From NCBI GenBank assembly GCA_000165345.1, contig CM000430.1, positions 64,001 through 128,000 on the forward strand: a DNA stretch of 64,000 bases. The letters are read 5' to 3'. Shown here one piece after another: positions 10,688 to 40,415 of this stretch. The notes under the pieces were generated by a model, which saw only the letters and a program-made list of their open reading frames with translations, made no database searches and was not told the origin of the DNA. A program made the position numbers and the translations under genes. The first letter of the stretch is position 1. Each line of letters begins with the position of its first letter.

Positions 10688-12295
10688 ATGGCAATAAATA
10701 ATGCTGAAGAAATGGAACTTATGAAGAGGAGAAGAGTAGGAGCAGAATATCAAGAGAGTAGCCCAGGAGAAGGTACTGAGCAGAAACAGGAACGCCATGT
10801 TAATGTTCAATTTATAGATCCAGATGGCAATAAGGTAGGCGATGAATTCGATATAAACTTAGATGAAACCAATTTAAGGGACCTGAATGCTTTGGTTAAC
10901 CAACTTTTGGAGAATGAAGAAGATACTCCCTATAGTTTTTGCTTAAATGACTCAAATTTGGAGGTATCATTCTCACTTTCCGAAACATTTGATAAAATAG
11001 GAGGAATTTCTACAGAAGATGTTCTCAAAATTGTTTATTATCCAATGACTCCTTTTAAAATCTTACCAGCCACAAGGTGTACTAGTTCTTTACAAGGCCA
11101 TAAAGATGCAGTTTTATGTTGCTCCTTTAGTCCTGATAGTAATTTACTTGCGACAGGATCTGGTGATACAACAGTTAGACTCTGGGATCTTCTTACAGAA
11201 ACTCCTGAAATGTGTCTAAAAGGCCATTTAAATTGGGTTCTAACTTTAGCTTGGTCTCCAGATTCTACCTTATTAGCATCAGCAGGTATGGATAATGCTA
11301 TTTGCATTTGGAATCCATCCAAGGGTGATAAGGTATTTAGAAAGCTCAAAGGACATTCAAAGGCTGTAGTTTCATTAGCATGGCAACCTCTGCATCTAAT
11401 GAACTTCTCTGCTGAAACTAAAGTTAATGATGGTGAGGAAAATGCTACAGAATCAGGGTCGAACAACTTGTATTTCCCTAAATTAATAAGTGCATCCAAG
11501 GATTTTACCCTAAAGATTTGGAACATAACAACTGGAACAATAATTAATACTTTGTCATCCCATACTGAAATGATTACACATGTCAAATGGACTGGAATAA
11601 ACCAGGAATATGTTGTTAGTTCTTCTAGAGATTCGCTGATTAAGGTTTGGAACCCAGAAACTGGTCAACTTTTGAGAGATTTGAAAGGCCATGCTCACTG
11701 GGTTAATACTCTTGCCCTAAATACTGATTATATTACCAGATCAGCTTGTTACTACCCTACTGGGAAAAACCTGAAGCTAAACTTCAAATCCTTGCAAGAC
11801 AAGATCGCTGCAGCCAAACAATCTGTTGATAACTTTAAAAAAAGGTGCAAGTTTGAAAGGCTTCTCTCAGGTTCTGACGATAATACTATGTTCCTATGGG
11901 ATCCGCTTGGAGAAAATGGTAGAAAGCCAATTCATAGACTAACAGGGCATTTAAAAGTTGTTAACCATGTTGCCTTTTCTCCAGACGGAAGATATATTGC
12001 ATCTGCATCATTTGATAAAACTATTAGGCTCTGGGATGGACATTCTGGAAAGTTTATTGCGGTTCTTAGGGGCCATGTCGGTCCAGTATATATGATTTCA
12101 TGGTCAGTGGATAGCAGATTGATTGCATCTGCTTCTAGTGATAGTACGGTAAAAGTTTGGCACGTAAGCTCTAAAAAACTCAAGGAAGATCTCCCAGGTC
12201 ATGCTGACGAAGTTTACACTATTGACTGGTCTATAGATGGTTCAAGACTTTCATCAGGATCTAAAGATTGTATTGTGAAAATCTGGAGGCATTAA
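10688..12295 (+). CDS. NLE1: Notchless homolog (NLE1), ribosome-biogenesis WD40 protein with an N-terminal NLE domain.
   Basis: First ATG is at 10688; the track's 10682 is a GTG. The NLE domain (VQFIDPDGNKVGDEFDINLDETNLRDLNALVNQLL...) is followed by eight WD40 repeats. It aligns end to end with human NLE1 (TRCTSSLQGHKDAVLCCSFSPD.. / ..GSGDTTVRLWDL.. / ..HADEVYTIDWS...KIWRH). Confidence 0.85.
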   Translation: MAINNAEEMELMKRRRVGAEYQESSPGEGTEQKQERHVNVQFIDPDGNKVGDEFDINLDETNLRDLNALVNQLLENEEDTPYSFCLNDSNLEVSFSLSETFDKIGGISTEDVLKIVYYPMTPFKILPATRCTSSLQGHKDAVLCCSFSPDSNLLATGSGDTTVRLWDLLTETPEMCLKGHLNWVLTLAWSPDSTLLASAGMDNAICIWNPSKGDKVFRKLKGHSKAVVSLAWQPLHLMNFSAETKVNDGEENATESGSNNLYFPKLISASKDFTLKIWNITTGTIINTLSSHTEMITHVKWTGINQEYVVSSSRDSLIKVWNPETGQLLRDLKGHAHWVNTLALNTDYITRSACYYPTGKNLKLNFKSLQDKIAAAKQSVDNFKKRCKFERLLSGSDDNTMFLWDPLGENGRKPIHRLTGHLKVVNHVAFSPDGRYIASASFDKTIRLWDGHSGKFIAVLRGHVGPVYMISWSVDSRLIASASSDSTVKVWHVSSKKLKEDLPGHADEVYTIDWSIDGSRLSSGSKDCIVKIWRH

Positions 12296-12640
12296 AGAAT
12301 CTTTCACGCCTTTTCTACTAACTATTTATATATAATTTGAATATATTATTCGTATCAGGTTAAATAATATCAATATTTATAGTTTAATAAGAAAAATTAG
12401 ACTATTCATTTCATACCTTTTTATTTATTTATTTAATTAATAGGTTTGACTTTTATTTGTGTAATAACATTATTCCTAAATTCCCAAGTCATTAATATGG
12501 GATGAGAAAGATATTCTACAAAAGTAAAAACTTCATACTATTTGTTTGAAAGGTAAATCACCTCATTATTATTACTTTTAATATTCTTTTAATTTTTTTT
12601 TTTTTAAATCCATTATTACCTTTGATTATCTTCCAATTCG

Positions 12641-12653
12641 TTTTGGCGGCAAA
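12641..12653. promoter_or_regulatory. E2F-like TTTTGGCGGCAAA site ~160 bp upstream of the 12810 gene.
   Basis: GC motif in AT-rich DNA. Confidence 0.4.
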
Positions 12654-12809
12654 TGTCAATATTTACATGAAGGGATAAATCTGAAAATAGTTTTAAAAAA
12701 TTAATTAATTAAGGTAATAGTGGTTACAGTATGCTGAATAAACGACTTTAGAATAACTTATTAGTTAAACACAGTTACAATCAGAAACGGTTGGTATCGA
12801 GATTTAATC

Positions 12810-15800
12810 ATGAAAGCTATTAATGCAATATTTTTATTTGCAATCTTGATATCCAGTTATTTAACAGAATCTCATGGGTATCAAGAAGGTAACAATCAAT
12901 TCGAGTATACTGGTTATGTAGCTCCCAGTTTGGATGTATTTTTGAGAGAGTATGATGCTTTTGGTAGAGCTAAAGATGAATTTGAGTTGGATCAAAAATT
13001 ATTCACATTATTAGAAAATCCAAATTGTTGGTACAATCAAAGAGGTAAAAAAGTTATCCTTTTGTTTAATGAAACCAATTTCCCAGAGGAATATGCAATT
13101 CTTCGTAAATCTAGTAGGCTGTTTGGACCAAATAATAGATTGGAAACTGATTTTTTGATTTTAGAAGAAGAGGAAGAACGAGAACAATATATGGATTTTT
13201 ATGAAAATATCAAAGATAACCATGATTTAGATATTTCAGAGAACAGAAATAATTATAATGACATAATTGTTGATGAAAAGAATAGATATGCCTATTTGGA
13301 TAATTATTCAGAAAATAAGACATCTACTGTCCAAGATTTAATCTCGGAAGATTTAGAGAAGGAAAAGTATAAATCCAGGATTAAAAAACTTATTAAGATG
13401 AAGGAAAACGCCTTAAAGAAGATCTTTCAAACCTCAAATGATATTAGAAGCTTGGAGAGCTCTTTTATTATGCATTGTGATTTCCCTGACTGTAGCTTAT
13501 GTAATGACTTTCAATCACATTTAAATAGTAAATATATTGAACTAAATAAGTATAAACACAGATATAGAATGATAATATCTTTATTCAAAGAGTTTGTTGA
13601 TCATTCTAATAAGTTTGGTTTTGAATACTATTATGAAAATGAGAACATTGACAGAAATTTAAAGGGTAGAGTTAATGATACTAAGAAAGTGCAAAAAATT
13701 ATAAGAAGACCAAACTTTAACATAACAAAAGAATATAATCATATTTTAGATTTTGATTCAAATTATAATGAATTAAAAAGAATGTTGAATGAAGCTGAAA
13801 GAGAAATGGATATTTTAACACAAAAAACAAAAAAAGAAACTATTGGTAACAATAATTATGGAGAACCAGAAATGATTGAATGCACTGGAGAAAAACTTAG
13901 AGAATTAGTTAGTAGAAATGAAAGGTTATCACTTTTAATTAGAAGTGTAAAGTTTTTTATTGAGTCTCTATTTGAAAGAACATGTTCAGTATGCAATATG
14001 AAATCATTCAATGGTTTTACCAAATTTGGAGATATGATTGACACGCAAATACGTATTTTAAAGTACTATCAGTCTGAAAAGAATATGATTGAAGAAGATA
14101 TCCAGCTGTGTAATAATTTTTTCGAAAACAATGCTATTAAATTGGATGATCATTCTCAATCTAGGAAAAATTCTTATAGTTATGAATACAGCTATTTGCC
14201 AAAAAATGAATATAATGTAAAGATGAATAAAATATTTGAAAAGTATAAAGAGTATGGAAAAAATAAAGTAGATCTTGAGAAGTTGATTTACGGTTCCTCA
14301 AGAAATTTGCAAGTTGGTAATAAAGATTTCATGTGTGACATTAATAGCTCAGTTTTGATGAATGAGTTATCCAAAGAAATTATGAGCAGAATAATTTCCA
14401 GTGAAATTCAAAAAAGGGTATATTTAAAACGAAAAGAATGTAATTTCTGTTCTTACAATGACTGTCAGAAATGTTACGAAAATTCTATTAAACTTAAAAA
14501 CCTGGAAAATAATATTAAGGCTCAGAATAAACTTTACAAGGTTATTTTGGCTTATTTAGAATTGTGTGGCTTTGAACAAGTTATGATTAATTCTGAGTTT
14601 AGAGATCAGGGAAAAAAGAGTAAAACAGAATTTGAATACTTTGGAAAGGATGGTAGATTATGGTCTGTTGAGAAATACTTATCAGAACCTTTTATTGATA
14701 GAGTATTGAAATTAAATGGTCAGCTATCACCTTTTCTTAGAGCAAAAATTCTAGAGAGAATTAAGCTAACATTACAAGCTTTCATTAAAGTTTTTGAACT
14801 TTCGTATTTTAACATTGACAGACAAGAATGTAATTCATGTGAATATGGACTCTGTAATGATTGTTTTTATAAGTTTAGAGAAATAAATGATAAAAAAAAG
14901 CAAATTACGAAATACAACCATTTATTGAGAGTAGTGAACTTAGAATTAGAAAAATACTATATACAAATAAGAAAATCAAAAACCAACTCAAGAATTAAGG
15001 GTAATACAAAGGAATGGATTTTAATTACAGATAACAGCCTTAGAAAATGGGTTCCAAATAAACCAGAACTTGTTTTAAAATGTGATAAAGCAAGTTATTC
15101 AGAGGCATTCACTTACTATAATGAAATTTCATTAAAGAGAAAACATTTAAAAAATATGTTAAATCATATTTATAGCTCTATAATGCATAGCAACCTAAAA
15201 TTCTCAGAGTACCATTTTTCAAAACAAGCCAAAGAATGGGAGTCAACATGGAGAAAGAAAGTTTATTATGATGAGGTATTTAGTTATATTAATAGATACT
15301 TATCATCATGTGTTAATAAAAATGAGGAACTTAGCAATTCCTTTCATGATTACTTATATAAAAAATCTGAAATAAGAAGTCTATATAAGAGTTTCCAAGA
15401 ACACAGTGAGAATATTAATTGCTTGATGGAAAAGATCAAGGAAATTCATAATAGTGGTTACATTGTATGTTCAAAACTTTCATCAACAAATTGTTGTAAT
15501 GATTTTGTTAATCCAGATGACATTTATAAACTACTAAATTCAGAATTCAATGCATTTAAATTAATTAGGAAAAGGTTAAACCATTTAATATATAATGAGC
15601 ATTTGAATTATTTTGATCGCAATAAAGAGTATTCTGAAAATTATCATAAAGGAGAGATTAATAATCGTTTTTTGAGACATCTAAACATGAAAAATGAAAA
15701 ATTAAGAAATAAGAAAAGAGTCAAAGAAGAGAAATTAGATAAGATAACAGTTGAATATCAAGATATTATTAGGTCACCAATATCAGGAATGAGTAAGTAC

Positions 15801-16520
15801 TTGCATGAAAATGAAATTAACACTCGAAGTGAAAATCAGAGTATAATTCAATTAAGTCCAAAGTCTGAATTTCAATGTAGTAAGACAGAAATTTTGGTTT
15901 TACAAAAAATAACTTCACTACTAACACAAAATAAAAACAGGTTGAGGCTATTATGGAGTCTGAATAGTGTAAGATGCAAAATAGAGGATTGTTATAATTG
16001 TAAGATAAGGAATAAATTTCATGATAAATTAGGAAAAGAGTTGAAAATTTTGAGTAAAGTTTTGAATAGCGCAGCTGAACAGTTGAATCAATGTACTTTG
16101 GATTCTGAAGATAATGCTGTTAGTAAAGAAGATATTATTGAGTTCCAAAATACATTAATGAAACTTTCAAAGAAAGAAAGTAGTTTTAATTATGACTTGA
16201 AAAGATATTTTGATAATATTAAAGATTTTCAATGTGAAAAGAATGAAATTGAAAATATTTTAAATATTAAAGGGGAAAAAGGAATGAAGATATATTCTTG
16301 GATAGAGGAGACTCTAGTTGAGATCCAGACTTTAGATAACGAATATGAGGACGAGAATATGAAAAGCAAATACACAATTTGGACACAACAAGTTACTCAA
16401 CTACTTGATTTCTCAAAAGCATTAGATGAGAGATTACAAGAATGTATAAATATGATAGAAATGTGTATAGATCACTCTGAAGAGAATAATATAAATCAAG
16501 TGAACATACGACAGAATTAA
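12810..16520 (+). CDS. Large secreted Lys/Asn/Glu-rich protein (1236 aa) with a signal peptide and repeated CxxC-x4-CxxC modules.
   Basis: ATG at 12810. The N-terminus MKAINAIFLFAILISSYLTESHG is a predicted signal peptide. Recurring cysteine knots are CDFPDCSLC, CSVC, CNFCSYNDCQKC, CNSCEYGLCNDC and CKIEDCYNCK, about 130 aa apart. No match to a known family. Confidence 0.6.
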   Translation: MKAINAIFLFAILISSYLTESHGYQEGNNQFEYTGYVAPSLDVFLREYDAFGRAKDEFELDQKLFTLLENPNCWYNQRGKKVILLFNETNFPEEYAILRKSSRLFGPNNRLETDFLILEEEEEREQYMDFYENIKDNHDLDISENRNNYNDIIVDEKNRYAYLDNYSENKTSTVQDLISEDLEKEKYKSRIKKLIKMKENALKKIFQTSNDIRSLESSFIMHCDFPDCSLCNDFQSHLNSKYIELNKYKHRYRMIISLFKEFVDHSNKFGFEYYYENENIDRNLKGRVNDTKKVQKIIRRPNFNITKEYNHILDFDSNYNELKRMLNEAEREMDILTQKTKKETIGNNNYGEPEMIECTGEKLRELVSRNERLSLLIRSVKFFIESLFERTCSVCNMKSFNGFTKFGDMIDTQIRILKYYQSEKNMIEEDIQLCNNFFENNAIKLDDHSQSRKNSYSYEYSYLPKNEYNVKMNKIFEKYKEYGKNKVDLEKLIYGSSRNLQVGNKDFMCDINSSVLMNELSKEIMSRIISSEIQKRVYLKRKECNFCSYNDCQKCYENSIKLKNLENNIKAQNKLYKVILAYLELCGFEQVMINSEFRDQGKKSKTEFEYFGKDGRLWSVEKYLSEPFIDRVLKLNGQLSPFLRAKILERIKLTLQAFIKVFELSYFNIDRQECNSCEYGLCNDCFYKFREINDKKKQITKYNHLLRVVNLELEKYYIQIRKSKTNSRIKGNTKEWILITDNSLRKWVPNKPELVLKCDKASYSEAFTYYNEISLKRKHLKNMLNHIYSSIMHSNLKFSEYHFSKQAKEWESTWRKKVYYDEVFSYINRYLSSCVNKNEELSNSFHDYLYKKSEIRSLYKSFQEHSENINCLMEKIKEIHNSGYIVCSKLSSTNCCNDFVNPDDIYKLLNSEFNAFKLIRKRLNHLIYNEHLNYFDRNKEYSENYHKGEINNRFLRHLNMKNEKLRNKKRVKEEKLDKITVEYQDIIRSPISGMSKYLHENEINTRSENQSIIQLSPKSEFQCSKTEILVLQKITSLLTQNKNRLRLLWSLNSVRCKIEDCYNCKIRNKFHDKLGKELKILSKVLNSAAEQLNQCTLDSEDNAVSKEDIIEFQNTLMKLSKKESSFNYDLKRYFDNIKDFQCEKNEIENILNIKGEKGMKIYSWIEETLVEIQTLDNEYEDENMKSKYTIWTQQVTQLLDFSKALDERLQECINMIEMCIDHSEENNINQVNIRQN

Positions 16521-16766
16521 GAAACAGTATTATACAATCAAACTTTCTTAAAGAATTCAAAAACAATAGTGTGGGAATAAAATTAAGAAGCTATTGATTA
16601 ATAATGATAAAAACTACCATAATTAATGAATAATCTTAGGCATCCAAAGATCAGAGTTCCTCCAATGTTTGAACAAAAAATTGTTAAGATAATCAAACAT
16701 AAGCAAATCTTTTGAATTCAGAACTCCATATAATATATCCATTCAAAAAATATATATATACAGAAT

Positions 16767-16922
16767 TTACATCCCGAGCTTAGTTCTTAACCAGTGACGC
16801 TTCTTAACGTTGTATCTGATATCAGTATCGTTCTTCATGCGGAACCAGTGTGGTACAGCTCTGTTCTGCTTCATCTTCTTACCGAGACGCTTCTTTAACA
16901 TGAAACCTTTGTTTGCTCCCAT
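16767..16922 (-). CDS. RPL39: 60S ribosomal protein L39e (RPL39), 51 aa, intronless. Below the ORF-track size cut-off.
   Basis: Hand translation of the minus strand gives [51 protein letters not shown]. This matches the eukaryotic RPL39 consensus (..KKRLAKK.KQNRPIPQWIRMKT.N.IRYN.KRRHWRRTKLGL). Confidence 0.85.
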
Positions 16923-17097
16923 TTCGTCAACCTTTTATTGCAACAAATTTAAAAATATTGTTTAGTAAAATAAAAGTTATTTAACAATTGAAAGTTATTG
17001 CCTTTTACACTGTTTAATGTTGTTATTTATACGGTTGTATTAATTATAATATTATTAATATATTTAATTAGTTGACTAATAAATTATTATTTAGCAG

Positions 17098-17109
17098 GCG
17101 CCAAATTTA
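17098..17109. promoter_or_regulatory. E2F-like GGCGCCAAATTT site ~180 bp upstream of RPL39.
   Basis: GC motif in AT-rich intergenic DNA. Confidence 0.45.
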
Positions 17110-17385
17110 CTAAGACAAAAAAATGGCAGGTACTATACCGCTGGAATTTTGTCTCGTCTCGCTACTTTGTAAAAAATTTACGAAAATATTGTGTATATAG
17201 ATCTCGATTGTGAGATGAAAAAAAGATGAAAAAAAAAAATTGGAGAAAAAGTTGATGAGTAGGAGTTAAATAATAATAAGCTAATTAGTGAATACTATAA
17301 AAATACTATATAGTGAAATGAATGATATAAACTAAAGTAGATATGTATTGTAGGAAGTATGAAAACAAATAGAATAGCCTCATTT

Positions 17386-19560
17386 CTAAACCTCAGTGGA
17401 AATAACTTCCTGGATAGTTTCAAGCTCAATCTCGATAACTTCTTCTTGTTCTTCCCATTGTAAGGAATTAAGTAGGACTTCTTTTGCTGCAAGCCATTCT
17501 TTGTAAAGTGGTTGCTGAACCTTCCATTCTTGAATCTTTTGGAGAATAGCATTGAATTCATCCTCGTTGACTTTTCTCTTTTGGAGAACAATATTTCTCT
17601 TTTCAGATCTGACAGCCTCATCTTCAGCATCAAACTTTTTGCTGTAATCTTTAAGTTTTCTAGGAATTTCATCAAACTTTTCTTGTGAAAGAAGTGAAGG
17701 GGGATGAGGCCTCCAAATAAATTGGTAAAATGTCTCCAATGGTGAGTTGTAAAGTTGTCTGCCTTGGAAAGACCAAACTATGAAACCTGTTTCTGTGCTG
17801 TATTTATATGCACCTTCAGCTAACTTTGATTGGAAAGCTGTTGTAACATATCTACCGGTAGGATCCCATTGAATCCAGTTACACATAAAATGCTCATCTT
17901 TTTGCAAGATATCAAATTTGTTTTCATTTGTGAGCTGACAGAATGTTAAATTTCCTCCAGATCCACCTAAAACAAAATAGCTACCAAGTGGACTCCATTT
18001 AATTGTGTCAACAGGAGATGTTAAATAATATGAGCATACAAAGTCAGTTTGTGTTGCATTCACTTGGTAAAATCTCAGTGTTTGGGATCTTGTAACATCA
18101 TCTACAACAACAATGGCAAATCTATTAGATGATTCCCAGGATAAGCACTTGACAGTAACACCTTCAATATGTACAGTATCAACAGGAACATTTTTCTCTT
18201 TTACTCTAAAGATCTCAAGCTGAGTATATTCTTTTTTTGCCTTTTTACCAGCTTTTCTAGAAACTAGAGCCTTAAGACACATATACTGACCTTTTGGTTG
18301 CCAGTGGACAGATGCCTCTCTAACATTAAAGACATTCTTTATTGCCAACTCTTTTCTATTCTTAATAGAAAGCAAAGTAAGTCTACCTGGTGTATCTCCT
18401 CTTTCTGGACACCAAATTGAAAGGTTGTCTTCTTCAGGGGACCAATCAAAGAACTGAAGTGGATACTTTAATGGGTTCTTATTACCTGTAGCAGGATCTT
18501 CTACAAGAGTCATTGTGGAAGATTCATAGACAAAAAGTTCTCCTTTATCGGAGCAATGTGCAAGATAATTTCCAGTTGGACTCCAAAGGAAATGTAAACC
18601 ACTATCAGTTCCATTATTGTTAAGTGTCATAGTTGGTGTGGAAAAGCATCTTAAAAGTCGTCCAGAAAGTACATGCCATACTTTTACTGCCTTATCAAAC
18701 CTTGAATCTGGAGAAGAACCATCCCATGTTAATAAATATTCTTCATTTGGGCTGAAATCAATGAATTTAACATCTTTGTGTTCAAATCTAATCTTCTTAT
18801 CCCAATCATCACCTCCCCAAAGTGCAACACCCTGACGATGGAATGTCACTAAGTAAGAACCCATTGGACTCCATTGCACAGAAAAATCTGTCCAAACTCT
18901 TTTTCCTCCTTTAGCTCTTTCACCGTCATAAATTAATTCAGGAATTCTTTGAATAGAATCAAATGAATAGATCTCAGTTGCGCTTTGGTATCTAATAACA
19001 AATTGTTCTCTACACCTTGGCCCCATTAACCAATTTCTTACATCATCTCGACTGAATAAAGTCGGTGGTGGGTATAGAGTTTCAAAATGTCCTGGAGCTG
19101 ATTCATCTTGTTCAATAATTCTTTTTACATCATCAAACATTACTGTATTAAATTTTGTCTGTTTATCAAATGGTGCCTTTGAAAGTGCTTGGCAAACAGT
19201 TTCTGCTTGGAATGAATTCGAAAATGTCAATATAGCAACTCCTTTTGTGCTTCCATCTACATCCTGAGGTACATCAAGTAAAAAATTTTCGTCATACTCC
19301 ACTCTCATCATTTTAAGGGTTTGATTAATAATTGTTCTAAGAGCTTTAAGAAATCTCTCATATTTATCTGAGCCAATACATGGAAGTCCGAAAATAACAA
19401 AGCTTTTAGAAAATGAGTCTGATAAAGTCAGTGGTTCTTCTATTGTATTACATCTCTTGGAAATATATTCTTCAGTTTCCTCCCCATCATATGTGGAGTC
19501 ACTTAAATACTCCAAAAGATCAATATCTTCACCTAATTCTTCACGAGTAACTTTAAACAT
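17386..19560 (-). CDS. EIF3B: Eukaryotic translation initiation factor 3 subunit B (eIF3b/PRT1), RRM plus WD40 beta-propeller.
   Basis: ATG at 19560. The segment ...VQWSPMGSYLVTFHRQGVALWGGDDWDKKIRFEHKDVKFIDFSPNEEYLLTW... aligns with human EIF3B ([52 protein letters not shown]). Similarity continues across the propeller and C-terminal helix. Confidence 0.85.
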   Translation of the reverse strand: MFKVTREELGEDIDLLEYLSDSTYDGEETEEYISKRCNTIEEPLTLSDSFSKSFVIFGLPCIGSDKYERFLKALRTIINQTLKMMRVEYDENFLLDVPQDVDGSTKGVAILTFSNSFQAETVCQALSKAPFDKQTKFNTVMFDDVKRIIEQDESAPGHFETLYPPPTLFSRDDVRNWLMGPRCREQFVIRYQSATEIYSFDSIQRIPELIYDGERAKGGKRVWTDFSVQWSPMGSYLVTFHRQGVALWGGDDWDKKIRFEHKDVKFIDFSPNEEYLLTWDGSSPDSRFDKAVKVWHVLSGRLLRCFSTPTMTLNNNGTDSGLHFLWSPTGNYLAHCSDKGELFVYESSTMTLVEDPATGNKNPLKYPLQFFDWSPEEDNLSIWCPERGDTPGRLTLLSIKNRKELAIKNVFNVREASVHWQPKGQYMCLKALVSRKAGKKAKKEYTQLEIFRVKEKNVPVDTVHIEGVTVKCLSWESSNRFAIVVVDDVTRSQTLRFYQVNATQTDFVCSYYLTSPVDTIKWSPLGSYFVLGGSGGNLTFCQLTNENKFDILQKDEHFMCNWIQWDPTGRYVTTAFQSKLAEGAYKYSTETGFIVWSFQGRQLYNSPLETFYQFIWRPHPPSLLSQEKFDEIPRKLKDYSKKFDAEDEAVRSEKRNIVLQKRKVNEDEFNAILQKIQEWKVQQPLYKEWLAAKEVLLNSLQWEEQEEVIEIELETIQEVISTEV

Positions 19561-34096: not shown

Positions 34097-37000
34097 ATTT
34101 CATTCCAAAAATTATATCAATGGAAATTATATATTAATCATAAATATCTTCAAATTCAACAATTTCTCAATTCTAATATATGTAGAAATATTATTATAGA
34201 ATTAAGAAATTTATCAAAAGAAACAAAATTTACTATACAAATTTCTGATTTATTATATCGTAATTTTATTATGAGAAGAATATTAAATGGAATAATATAT
34301 TGGAAATTTCAAAGTCAATATCAAAAAGAATGTAGAAATAAATATCAATTACTTGAAAATTATATTAATAAAAAATTAATTAATAAAATATTTATTAATT
34401 GGAAAAAAGAATGTCAAGATTATATTATTTATTATAAATTTATTAAAAGTATACAATTACCAATCAAAAAAAGAGTTTTTATTATTTTTAAAGGTAATTA
34501 TATATTCAATAAATATAATTATAATTGTATTCGAATATTTTTTATATCATGGAATTCTTTAACAAATAAAAAAAGAATATTAAAAGAAAAATGTCAAAAT
34601 TTCTATCAATTTTATATTTTAAAAAGATTAATAGAAAGAGTATTTAAACAATGGAGAATAAAATATTATCAGAAATTGAATATATATCAATTTTATGATA
34701 ATATTATTATTAAAAAACCTATGAAAACAATTTTTTATTATTGGAATAATAAAACAATTCAAAGATTAAAAAATGAAAAAGAATTAACAACCAAAATAAT
34801 TAATAGAGAAAAAAAGGATTATTTAAGAATGATGATAATTATTTATAAAATGAATAAAATTTATTATCAAATCAATTTTGGAATTATTAAAAGAATATTT
34901 AATATATGGAAGAAATTATATATGATTGAAAAATTTCATAGAATGAAATTATTAAAACAATATATAATATATTGGAGACATTATTCAATAAAAAGAATAA
35001 TATATAGAGATAAGATTAATATATTTATACAAGAAAGATCAAAAAGATTAATAGAAGAATATTATATAAGAATGATTATATTATATAGAAAAAGAATACA
35101 AATAAAAGAAAAATATGAATATATAAGAAATAGAATAAGAAATAGAAATTTATTAAAAATTATTCAAATATGGAAACAAAGATTTAATAATAGAATAAAG
35201 AAAAAGAATGATTATCAATATTTATTAATAATACATAATAATTATATATTAAAGATGTCAATTCGAATTTGGAAGGAGAGAATGTTAAAAGAGGAAAGAT
35301 ATAGATTAATAATCAATCAAGAAGAAATGAAAAGAATATATAATTTAAAGAGTAGAATATTAAATTATTGGAGAAAAATTTGGAAACCACATCATTATAT
35401 AAAAGTATCAAATGAATTAATAAAGATATTGAATAGAATAATAATACATAATTCATTTCATAAATTATTAAGAATAACATTTTATTCATATAAATATAAT
35501 AAAGATGAGGATAAGAATTGGATTAATATGATAAGAATGAATAATAATATAATAATAAATAAAAGAATTGGATATAGTTATTATATGGAATGTAGATGTA
35601 CTAGTAATGAATTAATAAGAGGATGTTTATTATTAAAAGATAATAATTTATGGATAATGAATATATTATCAAAAATACAAGAAATAAGAAATAATACAAT
35701 ATATGATATGTTATTAAGAATGAGAGAATATATAAGAATAAGAAAGAATTATGAGAAAGGTATAAATGATTTGGAGAAGAATTTAAGAAGAATAATATTA
35801 TCAAGAGTTTGGATAGAGATGATTAATAATATAGAAAGAATATGGATGATAGGAAGATTAATAATAATAATAAGAAATAGAAGAGAGGAGAGAATAAAGA
35901 GACAAGTATTAGTAAGATGGGTGAATAAATATAATGAGAATTATAGGAATAAATGTATAATAGAATATATGAGAAGAATATATGGTAATACAATAAAGAT
36001 TAAATGTTATTTAATTTGGTCAATAAAATTTGAGATAATAAAAAAGAAGAAGAGATTAAAAGAAAGATATGAGAAATATTTAAGAGTTTATATAATAGAA
36101 TATACAATAAGAAGAATGAATGAATATTATTTATATAATAAATGGTTAATATGGTGTAAGAAAGCTTATGATAGAATAGAATGGGTACATGATTTTAGAT
36201 TAAAATCGATATTATTTATAAATTGGAGAAGATATTCAAAAAAGCAGAAAATATTAAGGGATGAATTATATATATTATATAATAAAGTAAAGATAAGAAA
36301 GAAAGGATATATATTAATAGAATGGGTGAATAGGATAAGAATATTATTAAGAATGAGAAATGATGCTGAGAATTATTATTTGAATAATATAATATATAGA
36401 AGAAGATTTAAAGATTGTTTTAATATATGGAGAGGATTATCATTAAGATTAAGAAATCAAAAGAAGAAGATAATGGATTATTTGGAGAATAAGAATAAGA
36501 ATTTGAAGATTACATGTTTTAAACTTTGGAGATTTTTTATTTATTATAGAAAGACAAGGAATTCAAGATTTGAGAAGATAACAAATATAATAAGATTGAA
36601 TCATTTAAATATGATGGTTTATAGAATATTTTATTCATGGAAATTAAAGATGATAGAATTAAGATCTTTAAAGAATTCAATATTTTCATTTTGGAATTCT
36701 GGTATGGGTTTGGAGATGGAGGAGAGTGGATTGGGAGTGGAGGATGGTGAGAGGGGAGGAAGAAGAGGGAGAGGAGTTGGAGGAGAAGGAAGGGTTGGAG
36801 GAAGAGGAAGGGGAGGGATGGGAGGAGAAATGGAAAGGGGAGGGATGGGAGGAGAAATGGAAAGGGGAGAAATGGTAAGAGGAGAAATGGTAAGAGGAGA
36901 AATGATAAGAGGAGAAATAGAAAGAAGAAGCGAAATAAAAGAAAGAAGAGAGATGAACGAGCTCATTTCTCCATCAACTTTTAATTCTCCTTCTCAATAC

Positions 37001-38350
37001 TCTTTGGAGTTTTCAGTGGATTCACCTTCATTTAAGTTAAAAGAGGAGGAGGATGGTGTAGGGGAGGAAGATTTAGATAATGGAGAGAAAAGAAGAAAAG
37101 GAAAGGGGGAGAAAAAAGATGTTGAGAGAAAGGATTATGGATTCATGAGTATATTTTCATCAAGTGGAAATTCTTCATTAGAGTTAGTATCTCAAAGGTT
37201 GGAATCAACACGTCAAGATGATTTGAGAGGTGTAGTTAAAGAAAGAGAAATTCAAGGTCAAGCAAGGAATAATTATGGGAATTCATCTCCATCATCTACT
37301 CGTGAATATGTTAATAGGTTACTTTCCTCTTCTTCTTCTTCTTCTTCTTTGTCTGCTTTATCCGATATTTCAGAAAAAGTTTCAATAAAAGACTCTCCAT
37401 ATACTAATTCCAAGACAAAAAGATCTCATAATTCTTATTCAAAAGCTAGAAGATCATTTTCTCCTTTCCTTCAATATTCTGTGTCTTCTTCTTCTTCCTC
37501 TTTACAGTCACTATCATATTCAGATGGTGACTTGGAGATTGATGAACTACATTCTGCAACAAAGTTAAAGATAAATAGAACTCGTAAGGATCAAAATTCG
37601 TTAGACTGGAATTCACCTTCATTATCTCCACAACAACCACCATCTTCATTATCTCTTCCTCCTCCACCATCTTCATTATCTCCTCCTCCACAAGTGACTT
37701 CATCATCTCTACAACCTTCATTATCTTCTTCACCGCCTCCAATATCTCGACAATCTCTATCTTTACCACAACAGCAATCTAATCCATCTTCACCTTCACT
37801 TCCACATCTATCTTTACCTCCTCCTCCTCCTCCACAATATTCGAGTTATAAATCTTCAAATTCAAGTAATAATGATTCAATGATAATAAATCGATCAAAT
37901 TTATCTTCAAAGTTACCTCTTCCATTTCCAATTCCTATTCAACAACAGCCACAATTACAAATGGTAAATCAGGATGTGAAACAATTGTATGATTCAAATT
38001 TCACTTCTTCTTCTTCTTCTTCTTCCTCTTATTTTTCCTCTGCTTTTTCACCCTCTTCTTACTCAAAGAAAATTACTGAAGATCCAAATTTATTATTAGT
38101 AAAACTTGATACTGATACAAATCAAACAATTAAAGATCTTCCTCAAGATCCTTATCATATCTCAAGTTCTAGTCCAATCTTTAAAACAATCAAGACTGAT
38201 TTAAACAATATTCCTAATCAAAACTTTAAAGATGACCAACAAATTGAGTCCAATATAAACATAAAACCCACTCATTCTCAAAACAATAATATATTCACTT
38301 CTTCTATTTCTTCCTCTTCATCCTCATCTTTCCCTTCTCAGTCTTCATAA
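34097..38350 (+). CDS. Giant low-complexity protein. It has an Sfi1-like centrin-binding repeat region (~23 W-containing ~33-aa repeats), then a Gly/Arg/Glu (RGG-like) block, then a Ser/Pro-rich tail. The 5' end is undefined because of the gap.
   Basis: The ORF is open from the gap to the stop at 38350. Repeats such as LIERVFKQWR, IIKRIFNIWKK, LLKQYIIYWRH, LKMSIRIWKE and LINKIFINWKK fit the Sfi1 consensus [LI][LI]x3[FLI]x2W[KR]. This segment is extremely AT-rich (~20% GC). Then GRGGRRGRGVGGEGRVGGRGRGGMGGEMERG.., then SSSSSS / PPPPSSLS tracts. Confidence 0.5.
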   Translation: MSFQKLYQWKLYINHKYLQIQQFLNSNICRNIIIELRNLSKETKFTIQISDLLYRNFIMRRILNGIIYWKFQSQYQKECRNKYQLLENYINKKLINKIFINWKKECQDYIIYYKFIKSIQLPIKKRVFIIFKGNYIFNKYNYNCIRIFFISWNSLTNKKRILKEKCQNFYQFYILKRLIERVFKQWRIKYYQKLNIYQFYDNIIIKKPMKTIFYYWNNKTIQRLKNEKELTTKIINREKKDYLRMMIIIYKMNKIYYQINFGIIKRIFNIWKKLYMIEKFHRMKLLKQYIIYWRHYSIKRIIYRDKINIFIQERSKRLIEEYYIRMIILYRKRIQIKEKYEYIRNRIRNRNLLKIIQIWKQRFNNRIKKKNDYQYLLIIHNNYILKMSIRIWKERMLKEERYRLIINQEEMKRIYNLKSRILNYWRKIWKPHHYIKVSNELIKILNRIIIHNSFHKLLRITFYSYKYNKDEDKNWINMIRMNNNIIINKRIGYSYYMECRCTSNELIRGCLLLKDNNLWIMNILSKIQEIRNNTIYDMLLRMREYIRIRKNYEKGINDLEKNLRRIILSRVWIEMINNIERIWMIGRLIIIIRNRREERIKRQVLVRWVNKYNENYRNKCIIEYMRRIYGNTIKIKCYLIWSIKFEIIKKKKRLKERYEKYLRVYIIEYTIRRMNEYYLYNKWLIWCKKAYDRIEWVHDFRLKSILFINWRRYSKKQKILRDELYILYNKVKIRKKGYILIEWVNRIRILLRMRNDAENYYLNNIIYRRRFKDCFNIWRGLSLRLRNQKKKIMDYLENKNKNLKITCFKLWRFFIYYRKTRNSRFEKITNIIRLNHLNMMVYRIFYSWKLKMIELRSLKNSIFSFWNSGMGLEMEESGLGVEDGERGGRRGRGVGGEGRVGGRGRGGMGGEMERGGMGGEMERGEMVRGEMVRGEMIRGEIERRSEIKERREMNELISPSTFNSPSQYSLEFSVDSPSFKLKEEEDGVGEEDLDNGEKRRKGKGEKKDVERKDYGFMSIFSSSGNSSLELVSQRLESTRQDDLRGVVKEREIQGQARNNYGNSSPSSTREYVNRLLSSSSSSSSLSALSDISEKVSIKDSPYTNSKTKRSHNSYSKARRSFSPFLQYSVSSSSSSLQSLSYSDGDLEIDELHSATKLKINRTRKDQNSLDWNSPSLSPQQPPSSLSLPPPPSSLSPPPQVTSSSLQPSLSSSPPPISRQSLSLPQQQSNPSSPSLPHLSLPPPPPPQYSSYKSSNSSNNDSMIINRSNLSSKLPLPFPIPIQQQPQLQMVNQDVKQLYDSNFTSSSSSSSSYFSSAFSPSSYSKKITEDPNLLLVKLDTDTNQTIKDLPQDPYHISSSSPIFKTIKTDLNNIPNQNFKDDQQIESNINIKPTHSQNNNIFTSSISSSSSSSFPSQSS
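36720..36935. repeat. Coding minisatellite (~18-21 nt units, GGAGAAATGGTAAGAGGA-like) encoding GEMERG/GEMVRG repeats.
   Basis: Tandem near-identical units are visible in the sequence. Confidence 0.6.
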
Positions 38351-38582: not shown

Positions 38583-38658
38583 AATTCCCGCCCATTTCTA
38601 TGCATGCATGGATTTTACAACTTACGTGTCAATTGACACGTAATTTGCATGCAAAAAT
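38583..38658. promoter_or_regulatory. Dense cis-element cluster. E2F-like TTCCCGCCC (38586..38594), TGCATGCATG (38601..38610), a perfect 22-bp palindrome TTACGTGTCAATTGACACGTAA (38622..38643) and TTTGCATGCAAAAA (38645..38658).
   Basis: Seen directly in the sequence. The ACGTGT + TGCATGCA pairing recurs at 42490..42518, 46040..46100 and 21397..21432. Confidence 0.5.
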
Positions 38659-38734: not shown

Positions 38735-38815
38735 AAGACAAAGTAAAGCGAGACAAAGCAAAGCAAGACGACAAAGCAAAGCAAGAAGACAAAGCAAAGC
38801 AAGACAAGGTAAAAC
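38735..38815. repeat. Tandem ~18-nt repeat (A/G)ACAAAGCAAAGCAAGAC x4, followed by an (ATT/ACT)n trinucleotide run at ~38845..38890.
   Basis: Seen in the sequence. It lies inside the small ORFs 38649..38834 and 38671..38895. Confidence 0.6.
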
Positions 38816-38999: not shown

Positions 39000-40415
39000 T
39001 CAAGCACTCATATCTAAAATAAATCCATACTTGACAGAATCAGGATCATTTAGTTTTCGAGGATCAATTTGAGCTCCAAATGTTGCTGAGATATTTTTTG
39101 TAAAATTATGAGTCAAAGAATATGCCATTTTTAAATTATTCATTACTTTAAATCTTAAATCAGTACTCTTCATATTATTAGTCATAGATCCAAAGGAAAT
39201 CTTACCTCCTATTGTATATTGAACTTTATCTGAAAATTTTGTTAAATAATTTTCATAATAAGTTTTTGATACTTTATTTTTGGTGATTAATCCTAATCCA
39301 TTATCTTCAATTTGTTGAATATTATCTTCATTATTATTTCCATTATTATTTTCAGTATTATAAGATATCATTAAGCCTAAAGTTAAATAATTTCTAACTA
39401 AATTGTTTAATATTAATCCTCCTGTAAATCCAGATAACTTATTATTTTGATGATTTGTATTAGTTTGTAATGATAAAACATAATTTGGTGTTAAAATAGA
39501 AATTGGACTTAATGTTGATGATCCTCCTATTCCTTCATATAAATCATTATTATCATTAGTATTATTATTATTACAAATCATACTATTCTTAAAACGTGAT
39601 CCAAAATTTTCTTTCTTATGTATTAAACCTTGATAATTAAATTGTTCATATCCTTGAGATCTTTCATTAATTGTATCTTTACAAGATCTCATAAATAAAG
39701 GTCCTTTAAGCATTAATCCCAACATTAATTTTAATGAATTCTTATTATTATTATTATGGGGTAAATTTATATTTGATGAAGATATCATTGATCCAAGACT
39801 TAAACTATTAATACAAGAAAATGGTCTTAAAGTTATTGTATTACTTAACATCATACCAATACTATCTTTATTTTCTTTATTAGATTTATTCAAACATCCT
39901 AATGTTTTTATTGTAGGAGATATTCTAAATCTTGATTGAATATATTCACCTTGAATATCTCCTCCAATTTCTAAACAACCTGATCCATTATTAGTATTAT
40001 TATATGATCCCAATGAATTTGTTAATTTTGGAAACCTTTCATATTTTGATGTTAAACTTATACCATAATATGGTTTTGTTTTTACTTCCATTATAGAAAT
40101 CCCATTCATATCCATTTTTGTTTCCATTTGTGATGAACATATATTCCATTTTAATGTTGAATTTCCATCCAATGAGAATATTTGTTTACTATTATTATTA
40201 CTATTATTTTCTCCACAACATCCATTTCCATCATTACAACATTTTGACTTATTTCCATTTTTTCCTCCATTAGAAGGTGTTGAAATATTATAACTAAATG
40301 AAGGATTCTTGCAAATACTTGTGAGATTTAACTCTAATAATTTATCTTTTTCTGTTGGATACTTGGACTTAAATAATCCAATTACTTCCTTATTAAAATC
40401 ACCAACTAGTACCAT
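39000..40415 (-). CDS. TOM40: Eukaryotic-porin-family beta-barrel protein, most likely mitochondrial/mitosomal outer-membrane Tom40, with Asn-rich low-complexity insertions.
   Basis: ATG at 40415. The N-terminus ..FKSKYPTEKDKLLE.. resembles the Tom40 NPGTFEE motif. The C-terminus ..KYGFILDMSA resembles the Tom40/VDAC terminal beta-strand (KFGFGL..). Alternating-hydrophobic strands run throughout. N-rich inserts include NNSNNNS, NNTNNGSG, CNNNNTNDNND and NTENNNGNNNEDN. Confidence 0.45.
   Translation of the reverse strand: MVLVGDFNKEVIGLFKSKYPTEKDKLLELNLTSICKNPSFSYNISTPSNGGKNGNKSKCCNDGNGCCGENNSNNNSKQIFSLDGNSTLKWNICSSQMETKMDMNGISIMEVKTKPYYGISLTSKYERFPKLTNSLGSYNNTNNGSGCLEIGGDIQGEYIQSRFRISPTIKTLGCLNKSNKENKDSIGMMLSNTITLRPFSCINSLSLGSMISSSNINLPHNNNNKNSLKLMLGLMLKGPLFMRSCKDTINERSQGYEQFNYQGLIHKKENFGSRFKNSMICNNNNTNDNNDLYEGIGGSSTLSPISILTPNYVLSLQTNTNHQNNKLSGFTGGLILNNLVRNYLTLGLMISYNTENNNGNNNEDNIQQIEDNGLGLITKNKVSKTYYENYLTKFSDKVQYTIGGKISFGSMTNNMKSTDLRFKVMNNLKMAYSLTHNFTKNISATFGAQIDPRKLNDPDSVKYGFILDMSA

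What the first reader, a model, noticed from the sequence alone, without database searches (positions are those of the whole stretch)
34097..38350. Sfi1-like centrin-binding repeat giant with RGG and Ser/Pro tails, extreme AT bias and an assembly gap at its 5' end
About 23 tryptophan-containing repeats at ~33-aa spacing fit [LI][LI]x3[FLI]x2W[KR], the Sfi1 centrin-binding consensus. Such proteins form centrosome/basal-body fibres in apicomplexans. The gene segment is far more AT-rich than its neighbours. It is followed by coding minisatellites (GEMERG repeats) and poly-Ser/Pro tracts. Its start falls in an N gap. Repeat collapse or misassembly is therefore plausible, and the true gene may be longer.
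Basis: partly seen in the sequence, partly recalled or inferred. Interest (0 to 1): 0.5.

Follow-up and report, generated by a model that had tools for sequence, protein, structure and literature searches.

The report
Cryptosporidium Sfi1-like centrin-scaffold gene, truncated
The window holds the last 60% of a real, genus-conserved Cryptosporidium parvum gene for a very long helical protein with tryptophan repeats every 33 residues, matching the centrin-binding Sfi1 motif; its start is missing because a 100-kb contig is flipped in this old assembly, a known error.

Summary
ORF 34100-38350 (+) is the C-terminal 1416 codons of one 2370-codon gene (cgd2_10 + cgd2_470) of C. parvum chromosome 2. 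The N-terminal 954 codons are missing. The cause is not repeat collapse: the contig left of the 100-N gap is the chromosome-end contig in reverse orientation, as Isaza et al. 2015 already reported.

The repeats are real. Lag 33 is the only significant self-similarity period (z 5.4 in the window, 8.3 full length), and it survives masking of W. Across 11 Cryptosporidium orthologues, some only 28% identical, 43 of 51 tryptophans are invariant. Hydrophobic residues peak at W-16, W-8/-7 and W-3, with K/R at W+1. These are the positions of Kilmartin's Sfi1 consensus AX7LLX3[F/L]X2W[K/R]. The ~1820-residue repeat domain has three prolines and an almost constant length across the genus.

No profile method (Pfam, PDB, 1.8 billion proteins) links it to any protein outside Cryptosporidium. 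It is therefore Sfi1-like by motif only, like Plasmodium PfSlp. Centrin binding and centrosomal location are untested.

UniProt already auto-names the orthologues "Sfi1 spindle body domain-containing", whereas the 2015 apicomplexan centrosome inventory lists Sfi1 as absent from Cryptosporidium. Interest is modest.

The parts
33997..34096 (.). Assembly gap of 100 N. Low-quality bases with single N start at 33968. The gap joins two contigs that are not neighbours in the real chromosome.
   Evidence: for the N runs. map the right side to about 104.8 kb of gapless chromosome 2. map the left side to about 5.4 kb from the chromosome end, in the opposite orientation.
34100..38350 (+). C-terminal 1416 codons plus stop of the 2370-codon Sfi1-like gene. 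The window lacks codons 1-954.
   Evidence: translation; full ORF in CP029781.1, CP044421.1 and CM109962.1; ORF statistics.
34271..38350 (+). Deposited gene model cgd2_470 (EAK88889.1 / XP_626284.1, 1359 aa), named 'very low complexity large protein, possible unreal ORF?'. It starts at an internal Met.
   Evidence: exact sequence and names; the peptide QNSLDWNSPSL, numbered 1108-1118 in cgd2_470, is window residues 1165-1175, which fits a start at window residue 58.
34100..36703 (+). Window part of the repeat domain (window residues 1-868, full-length residues 955-1822). It holds about 20 repeats of modal period 33 aa and 22 genus-invariant W, at window residues 8, 68, 101, 151, 185, 215, 270, 292, 358, 391, 424, 428, 571, 607, 640, 682, 685, 709, 742, 777, 810 and 847. 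It has only 3 prolines (residues 121, 207, 430), all invariant.
   Evidence: AlphaFold2 predicts 93% helix with helices up to 221 residues, at low confidence.
35384..35812 (+). Conserved non-repeat island that interrupts the array (window residues 429-571). Its motifs are P-H-x-Y-I-K, L-H-x-S-F-H-K-L-L and S-Y-x-x-E-C-R-C. The invariant W are 143 residues apart here.
   Evidence: invariant columns P1384, H1404, F1407, H1408, E1451, C1452, C1454; the repeat profile scores near zero here; helix breaks.
36518..36703 (+). Last two repeats, FKLWRFFIYYRKTRNSRFEKITNII...YRIFYSWKLKMIELRSLKNSIFSFWNSG. This is the most conserved stretch of the whole protein across the genus.
   Evidence: run of invariant columns 1759-1815; coordinates.
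36701..36955 (+). Gly/Arg/Glu/Met-rich coding minisatellite with RGG-type and GEMERG/GEMVRG units. Base composition is G 48%, C 0.8%. It is lineage-specific and varies in length between strains and between C. parvum and C. hominis.
   Evidence: arrays 36752-36925, periods 15/27/30/42; composition; 6-17 gapped positions in this segment against 0 in the repeat domain; the segment is short or absent in other species.
36956..38347 (+). Ser/Pro-rich, probably disordered C-terminal tail. Four short motifs are conserved: FMSIFSSSG (37142-37177), YVNRLLSSS (37301-37348), SDGDLEIDELH (37517-37555) and LPQDPYxISS (38135-38176). A PPS-type 27-nt repeat lies at 37617-37709. The tail has 13 S/T-P sites.
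22609..33967 (.). Chromosome-2 subtelomeric contig placed in the wrong orientation. In gapless assemblies it continues for about 5.3 kb into TTTAGG telomere repeats, not into this gene.
   Evidence: Isaza et al. 2015, PMC4637869, describe the inverted region whose correction merges cgd2_10 and cgd2_470.

Best explanation
The ORF is the C-terminal 60% of the single Cryptosporidium Sfi1-like gene (cgd2_10 + cgd2_470). The window most likely comes from the 2004 C. parvum Iowa II chromosome 2 (inferred).

Shown:
- It is a real, genus-wide conserved gene of about 2100-2370 codons.
- Its first ~1820 residues are a proline-free helical array of 33-residue repeats. Each repeat is centred on an invariant Trp preceded by hydrophobic residues at -3, -4, -7/-8 and -16.
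- A variable low-complexity tail follows.
- The 5' truncation is an assembly orientation error.

Inferred:
- Each repeat is a docking site for one centrin. The W / Phe(-3) / Leu(-7) triad would sit in the C-lobe pocket, as in yeast Sfi1p-Cdc31p and human SFI1-centrin.
- The protein would then form a centrin-coated rod with about 40 sites, about 270 nm long if fully helical (1.5 A per residue).
- The rod would sit at the juxtanuclear centrin-positive MTOC. It would be needed for that structure's duplication before each of the three nuclear divisions of merogony, as for TgSfi1 (outer centrosome core) and PfSlp (outer centriolar plaque).
- The S/T-P-rich tail with conserved short motifs would be the regulated or partner-binding end.

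The extreme AT richness reflects mutational bias acting on positions where only helix propensity and the periodic hydrophobic pattern are constrained. Orthologues in other Cryptosporidium species swap K/I/N for R/L/V and keep every W.
For: Real gene:
- ORF statistics.
- One uninterrupted ORF in three gapless assemblies.
- Orthologues at 69-32% identity in chipmunk genotype I, C. felis, C. canis, C. bovis/xiaoi and C. muris/andersoni/serpentis, and in C. meleagridis.

Repeats:
- Lag 33 is the only periodic signal in C. parvum, C. felis and C. muris, and it remains with W masked.
- A profile built only from the repeats outside the window scores the window domain at 190 bits, against 50 +/- 8.5 for shuffles.

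Constraint:
- 84% of W are invariant, against 4-19% for other residue types.
- There are no indels in 1822 residues between C. parvum and C. hominis.
- Domain length is 1807-1830 aa in eight species and 1904 aa in the three species of the C. muris group, with 3-4 prolines in the former group, despite K:R ratios running from 258:125 to 113:328.

Match to Sfi1:
- Over 473 repeat instances, hydrophobic occupancy is 90% at W-3 (F commonest), 77% at W-16, 74% at W-4 and 60% at W-7 (L commonest). K/R is 42% at W+1. The published consensus is AX7LLX3[F/L]X2W[K/R], with 33-mers in human SFI1 and proline-poor repeat regions.
- 13 copies of [FLW]xxW[KR] against 1.8 expected, and 3 hits to Kilmartin's two-repeat pattern against 0.03 expected.
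- AlphaFold2 gives 93% helix with helices up to 221 residues and no 33-residue helix-turn-helix pattern, at low pLDDT.

Context:
- PfSlp was named from motif counts without detectable homology and then shown to bind centrin.
- C. parvum has a centrin-1 dot that duplicates before each mitosis.
- UniProt auto-names the C. hominis and C. muris orthologues 'Sfi1 spindle body domain-containing protein'.
Against: - No statistical sequence link to any bona fide Sfi1. The Pfam-A copy used returned only a few far-sub-threshold hits to unrelated families and no match named Sfi1, for the window part, the full protein, 300-residue segments and five orthologues, including the less biased C. felis and C. 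canis.
- Profiles of the repeats and of the whole family find no PDB Sfi1 chain at E<=10.
- phmmer over 1.84 billion representatives and a three-species profile search find only Cryptosporidium proteins.
- K/R at W+1 is present in only ~42% of repeats, and the consensus Ala at -16 is replaced by I/L/V.
- The repeats start at residue ~10, with no N-terminal non-repeat domain.
- The only published localisation used an anti-peptide antibody to the tail in non-dividing sporozoites. [quoted passage not shown]
- The AlphaFold models have pLDDT ~50.
Confidence: 0.7

Rival explanations
1. It is a genus-specific long helical rod whose W-centred 33-residue repeats arose independently. They would bind another EF-hand protein (calmodulin or a calmodulin-like light chain) or mediate self-assembly. 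The likeness to Sfi1 would be convergent, and the protein need not be centrosomal.
For: No homology outside Cryptosporidium by any profile method. Pfam returned no family above its cut-off and nothing named Sfi1. The sporozoite IFA was cytosolic and granular. The basic residue at W+1 is only partly conserved. There are twice as many repeats as in yeast or human Sfi1.
Against: Preferences coincide at five separate consensus positions plus the 33-residue period. Bona fide Sfi1 proteins are themselves too divergent for sequence searches (24.5% identity between two Saccharomyces species; PfSlp). IQ motifs are absent.
Confidence: 0.2
2. It is an alpha-solenoid of TPR/HAT-type ~34-residue helix-turn-helix repeats that forms a compact superhelix, not a single extended helix.
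For: The period is close to 34 aa. HAT repeats also carry a conserved aromatic or Trp residue (from general knowledge, not tested here).
Against: Only 3 prolines in 1822 residues, and none in the first 1074. No credible TPR or HAT Pfam hit in any orthologue; the only TPR-named row is E=5.5 at 7.8 bits against a cut-off of 27. AlphaFold2 predicts uninterrupted helices of 138-221 residues rather than ~15-residue hairpins, at low confidence.
Confidence: 0.05
3. It is not a gene: a chance open frame in low-complexity AT-rich DNA, as the original annotators suspected ('possible unreal ORF?').
For: The original annotation name. GC is 17%. No domain hits.
Against: P(open frame) is about 3e-51, while the other frames hold 50-131 stops. 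Colinear orthologues exist across the genus, with W, F and Y selectively invariant. Length differences between strains all keep the frame.
Confidence: 0.01

Closest known systems
Plasmodium falciparum Sfi1-like protein PfSlp (PF3D7_0710000; Wenz et al. 2023, PMC10180636)
   Same: Both are giant apicomplexan proteins from AT-rich genomes with no detectable sequence homology to Sfi1. Both are recognised by an excess of [FLW]xxW[KR] motifs concentrated towards the N-terminus, followed by a long non-repeat C-terminal part.
   Different: PfSlp has been shown to co-precipitate with centrins and to sit at the outer centriolar plaque. Nothing of that kind exists for the Cryptosporidium protein. No sequence similarity between the two was detected.
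Toxoplasma gondii TgSfi1 (TGME49_274000; Suvorova et al. 2015, PMC4348508)
   Same: [quoted passage not shown] It is an outer-core centrosome protein needed for centrosome duplication. The layout here is the same: repeats over the first ~77%, then a disordered tail.
   Different: TgSfi1 is detectable from human SFI1 by BLAST (e-13 in that paper's Table 1). The same table lists 'none' for Cryptosporidium. The protein here has more conserved repeats (43 invariant W) and is not found by sequence searches.
Yeast Sfi1p and human SFI1 (Kilmartin 2003, PMC2173958)
   Same: The consensus positions AX7LLX3[F/L]X2W[K/R] match. The modal period of 33 residues is that of human SFI1. The repeat region is nearly proline-free.
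   Different: Those proteins have 17-23 repeats flanked by N- and C-terminal non-repeat domains. Here there are ~40 repeats starting at residue ~10. Ala at -16 is replaced by I/L/V. Two or three conserved non-repeat islands interrupt the array. The Pfam copy used gave no match named Sfi1, and no PDB Sfi1 chain matched.

Membership tests
Sfi1 / Sfi1-like centrin-binding repeat proteins | Multiple internal repeats with consensus AX7LLX3[F/L]X2W[K/R] (Kilmartin 2003) | tested here: met
   The position-wise preferences match: hydrophobic 90% at W-3, 60% at W-7, 54% at W-8 and 77% at W-16, and K/R 42% at W+1, over 473 repeat instances. The consensus was read. Deviations: I/L/V replaces Ala at -16, and K/R is not dominant. 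Only 6 window repeats meet a strict full regex.
Sfi1 / Sfi1-like centrin-binding repeat proteins | Repeat spacing of 23-36 residues, with 33 predominant in human SFI1 | tested here: met
   Lag 33 is the only significant period (z 5.4-8.9). 16 of 50 consecutive W-W gaps are 32-35 aa, against 2.2 expected.
Sfi1 / Sfi1-like centrin-binding repeat proteins | Excess of the minimal motif [FLW]xxW[KR], and hits to Kilmartin's pattern [FWL]xxW[KRH]x21-34[FWL]xxW[KRH] (at least 2 required) | tested here: met
   13 minimal motifs in the full protein and 9 in the window, against 1.8 and 1.0 expected; 0 of 1000 shuffles reach these counts. Pattern hits number 3 (full) and 2 (window).
Sfi1 / Sfi1-like centrin-binding repeat proteins | Proline-poor repeat region that forms a continuous alpha-helix | tested here: met
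   3 prolines in 1822 residues, all invariant. AlphaFold2 gives 93% helix with helices up to 221 residues, but mean pLDDT is only 50-52.
Sfi1 / Sfi1-like centrin-binding repeat proteins | Repeats placed centrally between non-repeat N- and C-terminal domains | tested here: inconclusive
   The first invariant W is at residue 34, so there is essentially no N-terminal domain. A C-terminal non-repeat tail of 207-548 aa is present. TgSfi1 and PfSlp are also N-terminally weighted.
Sfi1 / Sfi1-like centrin-binding repeat proteins | Significant match to the Pfam Sfi1 model or to a bona fide Sfi1 sequence | tested here: not met
   No family match above its cut-off and none named Sfi1 in the Pfam-A copy used, for the window part, the full length, segments or five orthologues. 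No PDB Sfi1 chain matched. Only Cryptosporidium proteins were found in the large searches. Two caveats: I had no known Sfi1 sequence to use as a positive control for that Pfam copy, and UniProt does name two orthologues as Sfi1 domain-containing.
Sfi1 / Sfi1-like centrin-binding repeat proteins | Direct binding of one centrin per repeat | not testable with these tools
   This needs pull-down or ITC, or multimer structure prediction. No centrin gene lies in the window.
Sfi1 / Sfi1-like centrin-binding repeat proteins | Localisation at the centrosome, spindle pole body or basal body | not testable with these tools
   The only published datum is an anti-peptide IFA in sporozoites: 'cytosol with some granular signals' (PMC8710574). 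It is not supportive, but it was done in a non-dividing stage.
IQ-motif calmodulin-binding repeat proteins | Repeated [FILV]Qxxx[RK]Gxxx[RK] at 23-27 residue spacing | tested here: not met
   0 strict motifs and 2 loose motifs against 1.5 expected. The period is 33, not 23-27.
TPR/HAT alpha-solenoid repeats | 34-residue helix-turn-helix units recognised by TPR/HAT profiles | tested here: not met
   No credible TPR or HAT Pfam hit; the only TPR-named row is E=5.5 at 7.8 bits. There are almost no prolines. The predicted helices are many times longer than a TPR helix.

The most novel reading that the evidence does not exclude
The repeat domain may act as a length-conserved molecular ruler. It is 1807-1830 residues in eight species, with no indels between C. 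parvum and C. hominis, and would be about 270 nm long if helical. With about 40 centrin sites it has twice the count of yeast or human Sfi1. It could form a centrin-coated elastic or contractile fibre that spans from the juxtanuclear MTOC towards the apical complex of budding merozoites. That would make it closer to the giant centrin-binding fibre proteins of ciliates than to a compact half-bridge component. It would also be the main centrin scaffold of an apicomplexan for which a published inventory lists no Sfi1.
Probability: 0.15. Interest if true: 0.55.

Novelty: new member of a known kind. Interest (0 to 1): 0.3.

Why it matters
Cryptosporidium cell division is poorly understood, and few MTOC components are known. 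The 2015 inventory of apicomplexan centrosome proteins lists Sfi1 as absent from Cryptosporidium. The reference C. parvum record calls this gene a possibly unreal ORF, split in two by an assembly error.

Recognising it as the genus-wide Sfi1-like protein gives a concrete candidate partner for centrin-1, the only centrosome marker now used in C. parvum. It also gives a gene to tag or deplete when studying MTOC duplication in merogony.

The protein is a clean example of one that keeps function-defining periodic residues and its exact length while composition drifts from K/I/N-rich to R/L/V-rich. That explains why homology searches miss it.

The variable G/R/E/M minisatellite could serve as a typing marker. 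None of this is conceptually new, and automated UniProt names already point the same way.

Tried and rejected
- Pfam scans of the window part, the full protein, seven 300-residue segments and five orthologues returned no family match above its cut-off and none named Sfi1.
- Profile searches of PDB sequences with the repeat alignment A1 and the family alignment A2 gave only chance hits: VP3 at E 0.52 and a TOK channel at E 1.4.
- The search for homologous proteins with the window repeat domain and with the N-terminal 420 residues returned nothing, not even the 96%-identical C. hominis protein. Local phmmer scores that pair at 1816 bits. The failure therefore lies in the word-index candidate step for this low-complexity sequence and is not evidence of absence.
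- A profile of the three less biased orthologues (A3) found only Cryptosporidium proteins.
- HMMER's composition correction (null2) turns repeat-profile scores negative. Cross-validation was therefore run without null2 against shuffled controls.
- AlphaFold2, with a single sequence and with a 7-row alignment, gave pLDDT ~50. Only secondary structure was used, and no fold search was run because low-confidence models give meaningless matches.
- Repeat collapse as the cause of truncation is rejected. The repeat domain is indel-free between species, and the missing part is intact in gapless assemblies.
- IQ-motif and TPR/HAT readings are rejected.
- dN/dS was not computed, because no C. hominis DNA was fetched.

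Full report
**Where the window comes from**

From position 34097 onward the window is 100% identical over 16.3 kb to Cryptosporidium parvum IOWA-ATCC chromosome 2, CP044421.1. The 1359-residue product starting at 34271 is exactly EAK88889.1 / XP_626284.1 of C. parvum Iowa II. That entry is named 'very low complexity large protein, possible unreal ORF?'. It is cgd2_470: the peptide QNSLDWNSPSL, numbered 1108-1118 in cgd2_470 by Gao et al. 2021, sits at the matching place. I infer that the window is from the 2004 Iowa II assembly.

**The observation**

- Frame 3 is open from 34100, directly after the 100-N gap at 33997-34096, to the stop at 38348-38350. That is 1416 codons.
- At the local base composition (A 50, T 33, G 13, C 3.9%) one random codon in eight is a stop. 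867 open codons therefore have a probability of about 3e-51. The other five frames hold 50-131 stops. This is coding sequence.
- The first 865 residues hold 27 Trp.
- Eight consecutive W-W distances are 32-35 residues, against a shuffle mean of 1.2 and a maximum of 6 in 5000.
- A scan of BLOSUM62 self-similarity at all lags from 5 to 119, not anchored on W, gives lag 33 as the only outlier. The z-score is 5.4 in the window part and 8.3 in the full domain. The signal remains when every W is replaced by Ala (z 4.8 and 6.6).
- The GC content of the repeat part is 17%, against 28% for the window.
- Tandem Repeats Finder reports coding arrays of period 15/27/30 nt at 36752-36925 (the RGG / GEMERG units) and a 27-nt array at 37617-37709 in the Ser/Pro tail.

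**The gap and the true gene**

In three gapless assemblies the same locus is one uninterrupted ORF of 2363-2370 codons. The window ORF starts at codon 955, so 2859 nt are missing.

The sequence left of the gap is not the missing part.
- Window 22609-33967 aligns to the first 16.7 kb of chromosome 2 in reverse orientation. In the gapless record that stretch runs on for about 5.3 kb into TTTAGG telomere repeats.
- The right side of the gap maps to about 104.8 kb of the same record.
- The terminal ~100-kb contig is therefore flipped in the window's assembly.

Isaza et al. 2015 reported exactly this: an inverted region on chromosome 2 of the Iowa reference whose correction merges cgd2_10 and cgd2_470 into one gene (PMC4637869). 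The 445-residue cgd2_10 product begins with the same residues as the full-length protein. 'Repeat collapse' is not the cause.

**Conservation**

A phmmer search of the window repeat domain against 1.84 billion representative proteins returned seven hits, all colinear. By cluster look-up, six are from named Cryptosporidium species and one is an unnamed protein assembled from a public sequencing run that aligns the same way.

| Species or source | Identity to query |
|---|---|
| chipmunk genotype I | 69% |
| unnamed species from a public run | 44% |
| C. bovis / xiaoi | 36% |
| C. felis | 35% |
| C. canis | 35% |
| C. muris / andersoni / serpentis | 32% |

C. meleagridis was added.

An 11-species alignment gave these results:
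- 43 of the 51 Trp in the C. parvum repeat domain are invariant (84%). The figures for Tyr, Phe, Leu, Ile and Lys are 19%, 17%, 12%, 4% and 4%.
- 22 of the invariant W lie in the window.

Further evidence of constraint:
- Between C. parvum and C. hominis the 1825-residue repeat region compared has 48 substitutions and no indel. The minisatellite and the tail carry 11-17 and 16 gapped positions and 7-11% substitutions.
- The repeat domain is 1807-1830 residues long in eight species and 1904 in the three species of the C. muris group. It has 3-4 prolines in the former group. Over the same species, K:R goes from 258:125 (C. parvum) to 113:328 and Ile from 296 to 88.
- A profile built only from the 19 repeats outside the window scores the window domain at 190 bits, against 50 +/- 8.5 (maximum 77) for 200 shuffles.

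The 'possible unreal ORF' reading is excluded.

**What the repeat looks like**

Over 43 invariant W in 11 species (473 instances), one search gives:

| Position | Occupancy |
|---|---|
| W-3 | 90% hydrophobic, Phe commonest |
| W-16 | 77% hydrophobic |
| W-4 | 74% hydrophobic |
| W-7 | 60% hydrophobic, Leu commonest |
| W-8 | 54% hydrophobic |
| W+1 | 42% K/R |

The background is 46% hydrophobic and 21% K/R, measured on the C. parvum sequence.

Kilmartin 2003 defines the Sfi1 repeat as AX7LLX3[F/L]X2W[K/R]. That places its consensus residues at -16, -8, -7, -3, 0 and +1. The same paper describes human SFI1 as almost entirely 33-mers and the repeat regions as nearly proline-free (PMC2173958). 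The agreement covers five positions plus the period.

Two deviations stand out. I/L/V replaces Ala at -16, and the basic residue at +1 is only a plurality.

Further tests:
- Kilmartin's own search pattern ([FWL]xxW[KRH]x21-34[FWL]xxW[KRH], at least two hits) is met three times in the full protein and twice in the window, against 0.03 and 0.02 expected.
- The minimal motif [FLW]xxW[KR], used to name Plasmodium PfSlp, occurs 13 and 9 times, against 1.8 and 1.0 expected (PMC10180636).
- Seven other long ORFs of the window have none.
- IQ motifs are absent.
- AlphaFold2 predicts 93% helix, with helices of up to 221 residues and no 33-residue hairpin pattern. This holds with a single sequence and with a 7-row alignment, but mean pLDDT is only ~50. 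I take it as weak support against a TPR/HAT-type solenoid.

**Anatomy in the window**

1. The repeat array runs from 34100 to 36703.
2. A conserved non-repeat island at 35384-35812 interrupts it. The island starts at the invariant Pro of WKPHHY and holds the LHxSFHKLL and SYxxECRC motifs.
3. The last two repeats (36518-36703) are the most conserved stretch of the protein.
4. A G/R/E/M minisatellite follows at 36701-36955. It is specific to the C. parvum / C. hominis lineage and varies in length.
5. A Ser/Pro-rich tail follows at 36956-38347. It has 13 S/T-P sites and four conserved short motifs: FMSIFSSSG, YVNRLLSSS, SDGDLEIDELH and LPQDPYxISS.

**What could not be shown**

No profile method links the family to any protein outside the genus.
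- The Pfam-A copy available returned only a few far-sub-threshold hits to unrelated families and no match named Sfi1, for any form of the protein or its orthologues.
- PDB sequence searches with two profiles gave only chance hits.
- The large searches found Cryptosporidium only.
- I had no bona fide Sfi1 sequence to use as a positive control for that Pfam copy.

UniProt does name the C. hominis and C. muris orthologues 'Sfi1 spindle body domain-containing protein', and an NCBI record of C. meleagridis says 'SF1 domain containing protein'. Some annotation pipeline has therefore made the link.

The one published localisation, an anti-peptide antibody against the tail in sporozoites, gave cytosolic staining with some granules. 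This does not support a centrosomal site. It was, however, done in a non-dividing stage with an unvalidated serum.

**Mechanism proposed (inferred)**

- Each repeat binds one centrin through the W / Phe(-3) / Leu(-7) face of a continuous helix. This would give a centrin-coated rod with about 40 sites.
- The rod would sit at the juxtanuclear centrin-1 dot, which duplicates before each nuclear division in C. parvum meronts (bioRxiv 10.1101/2025.09.30.679541).
- It would be required for that duplication, as TgSfi1 is for the outer centrosome core (PMC4348508).
- The tail would be the regulated end.
- The extreme AT richness is the genome's mutational bias showing through at positions where only helix propensity and the periodic pattern matter. 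This fits the wholesale K/I/N to R/L/V exchange seen in other species.

**Novelty**

- The gene, its split by an inversion, and an automated Sfi1 label on its orthologues are all on record.
- In the searched library only two papers mention cgd2_470 and none links it to Sfi1.
- The 2015 inventory of apicomplexan centrosome proteins lists Sfi1 as 'none' for Cryptosporidium.

It is a new, uncharacterised member of a known kind. It is useful to people working on Cryptosporidium mitosis but not surprising.

Noticed in passing
window 24205-33167 (+): A head-to-tail array of seven small ORFs (134-261 aa) lies in the chromosome-2 subtelomere. Each has an N-terminal hydrophobic signal-like segment followed, 30-50 residues in, by a shared short motif (HSFLNLR, FSILQIK, VSFLKLR, MSLIKLK, FSLLKLT, FSLLQMN, HSLIKLS), then low-complexity Ser/Gly/Pro-rich sequence. 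One ORF (27221-28006) ends in SRSKSRSRSK repeats. The array looks like a subtelomeric secreted-protein family, and the conserved motif could be a processing or export signal. Pfam found nothing for the three ORFs tested.
   Followed up: partly
window 38597-38653, and window-wide: TGCATGCA occurs 10 times in the window, against 0.5 expected and 0 of 100 shuffles reaching 10. Two copies flank a near-perfect 30-nt palindrome (38618-38647, CAACTTACGTGTCAA/TTGACACGTAATTTG). A GGCGGGAA-like element lies just upstream of them (~38585-38600). All this sits between the 3' ends of two convergent genes, an odd place for promoter-type motifs. It may mark an unannotated transcript.
   Followed up: partly
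window 38737-38805: An 18-nt tandem repeat, GACAAAGCAAAGCAAGAC, is present in 4 copies in the same 3' intergenic region.
   Followed up: no
L002 (CP044421.1) 12066-19178 and L004 (CP141119.1) 12067-19160: The old split persists in newer annotations. The IOWA-ATCC DNA has an intact 2370-codon ORF, but its annotation still lists two genes of 1359 and 441 aa. In CP141119.1 the frame of this gene is broken and the models are 1092 and 218 aa.
   Followed up: partly
window 39000-40415 (-): The 471-aa neighbour gives a sub-threshold match to Pfam Porin_3 (eukaryotic porin): E 1.3e-4, 21.9 bits against a cut-off of 28.4, over its last 65 residues only. It may be a divergent beta-barrel of the mitosome outer membrane.
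   Followed up: no
window 34100-36960: Composition drifts along the gene. The first kilobase is 13% GC with a GC skew of 0.18 and is rich in Q, K and N. The next two kilobases have a GC skew of 0.69-0.74 (almost no C; R encoded by AGA, plus E and G). The minisatellite reaches 48% G and 0.8% C. The cause of this purine-strand asymmetry was not examined.
   Followed up: no
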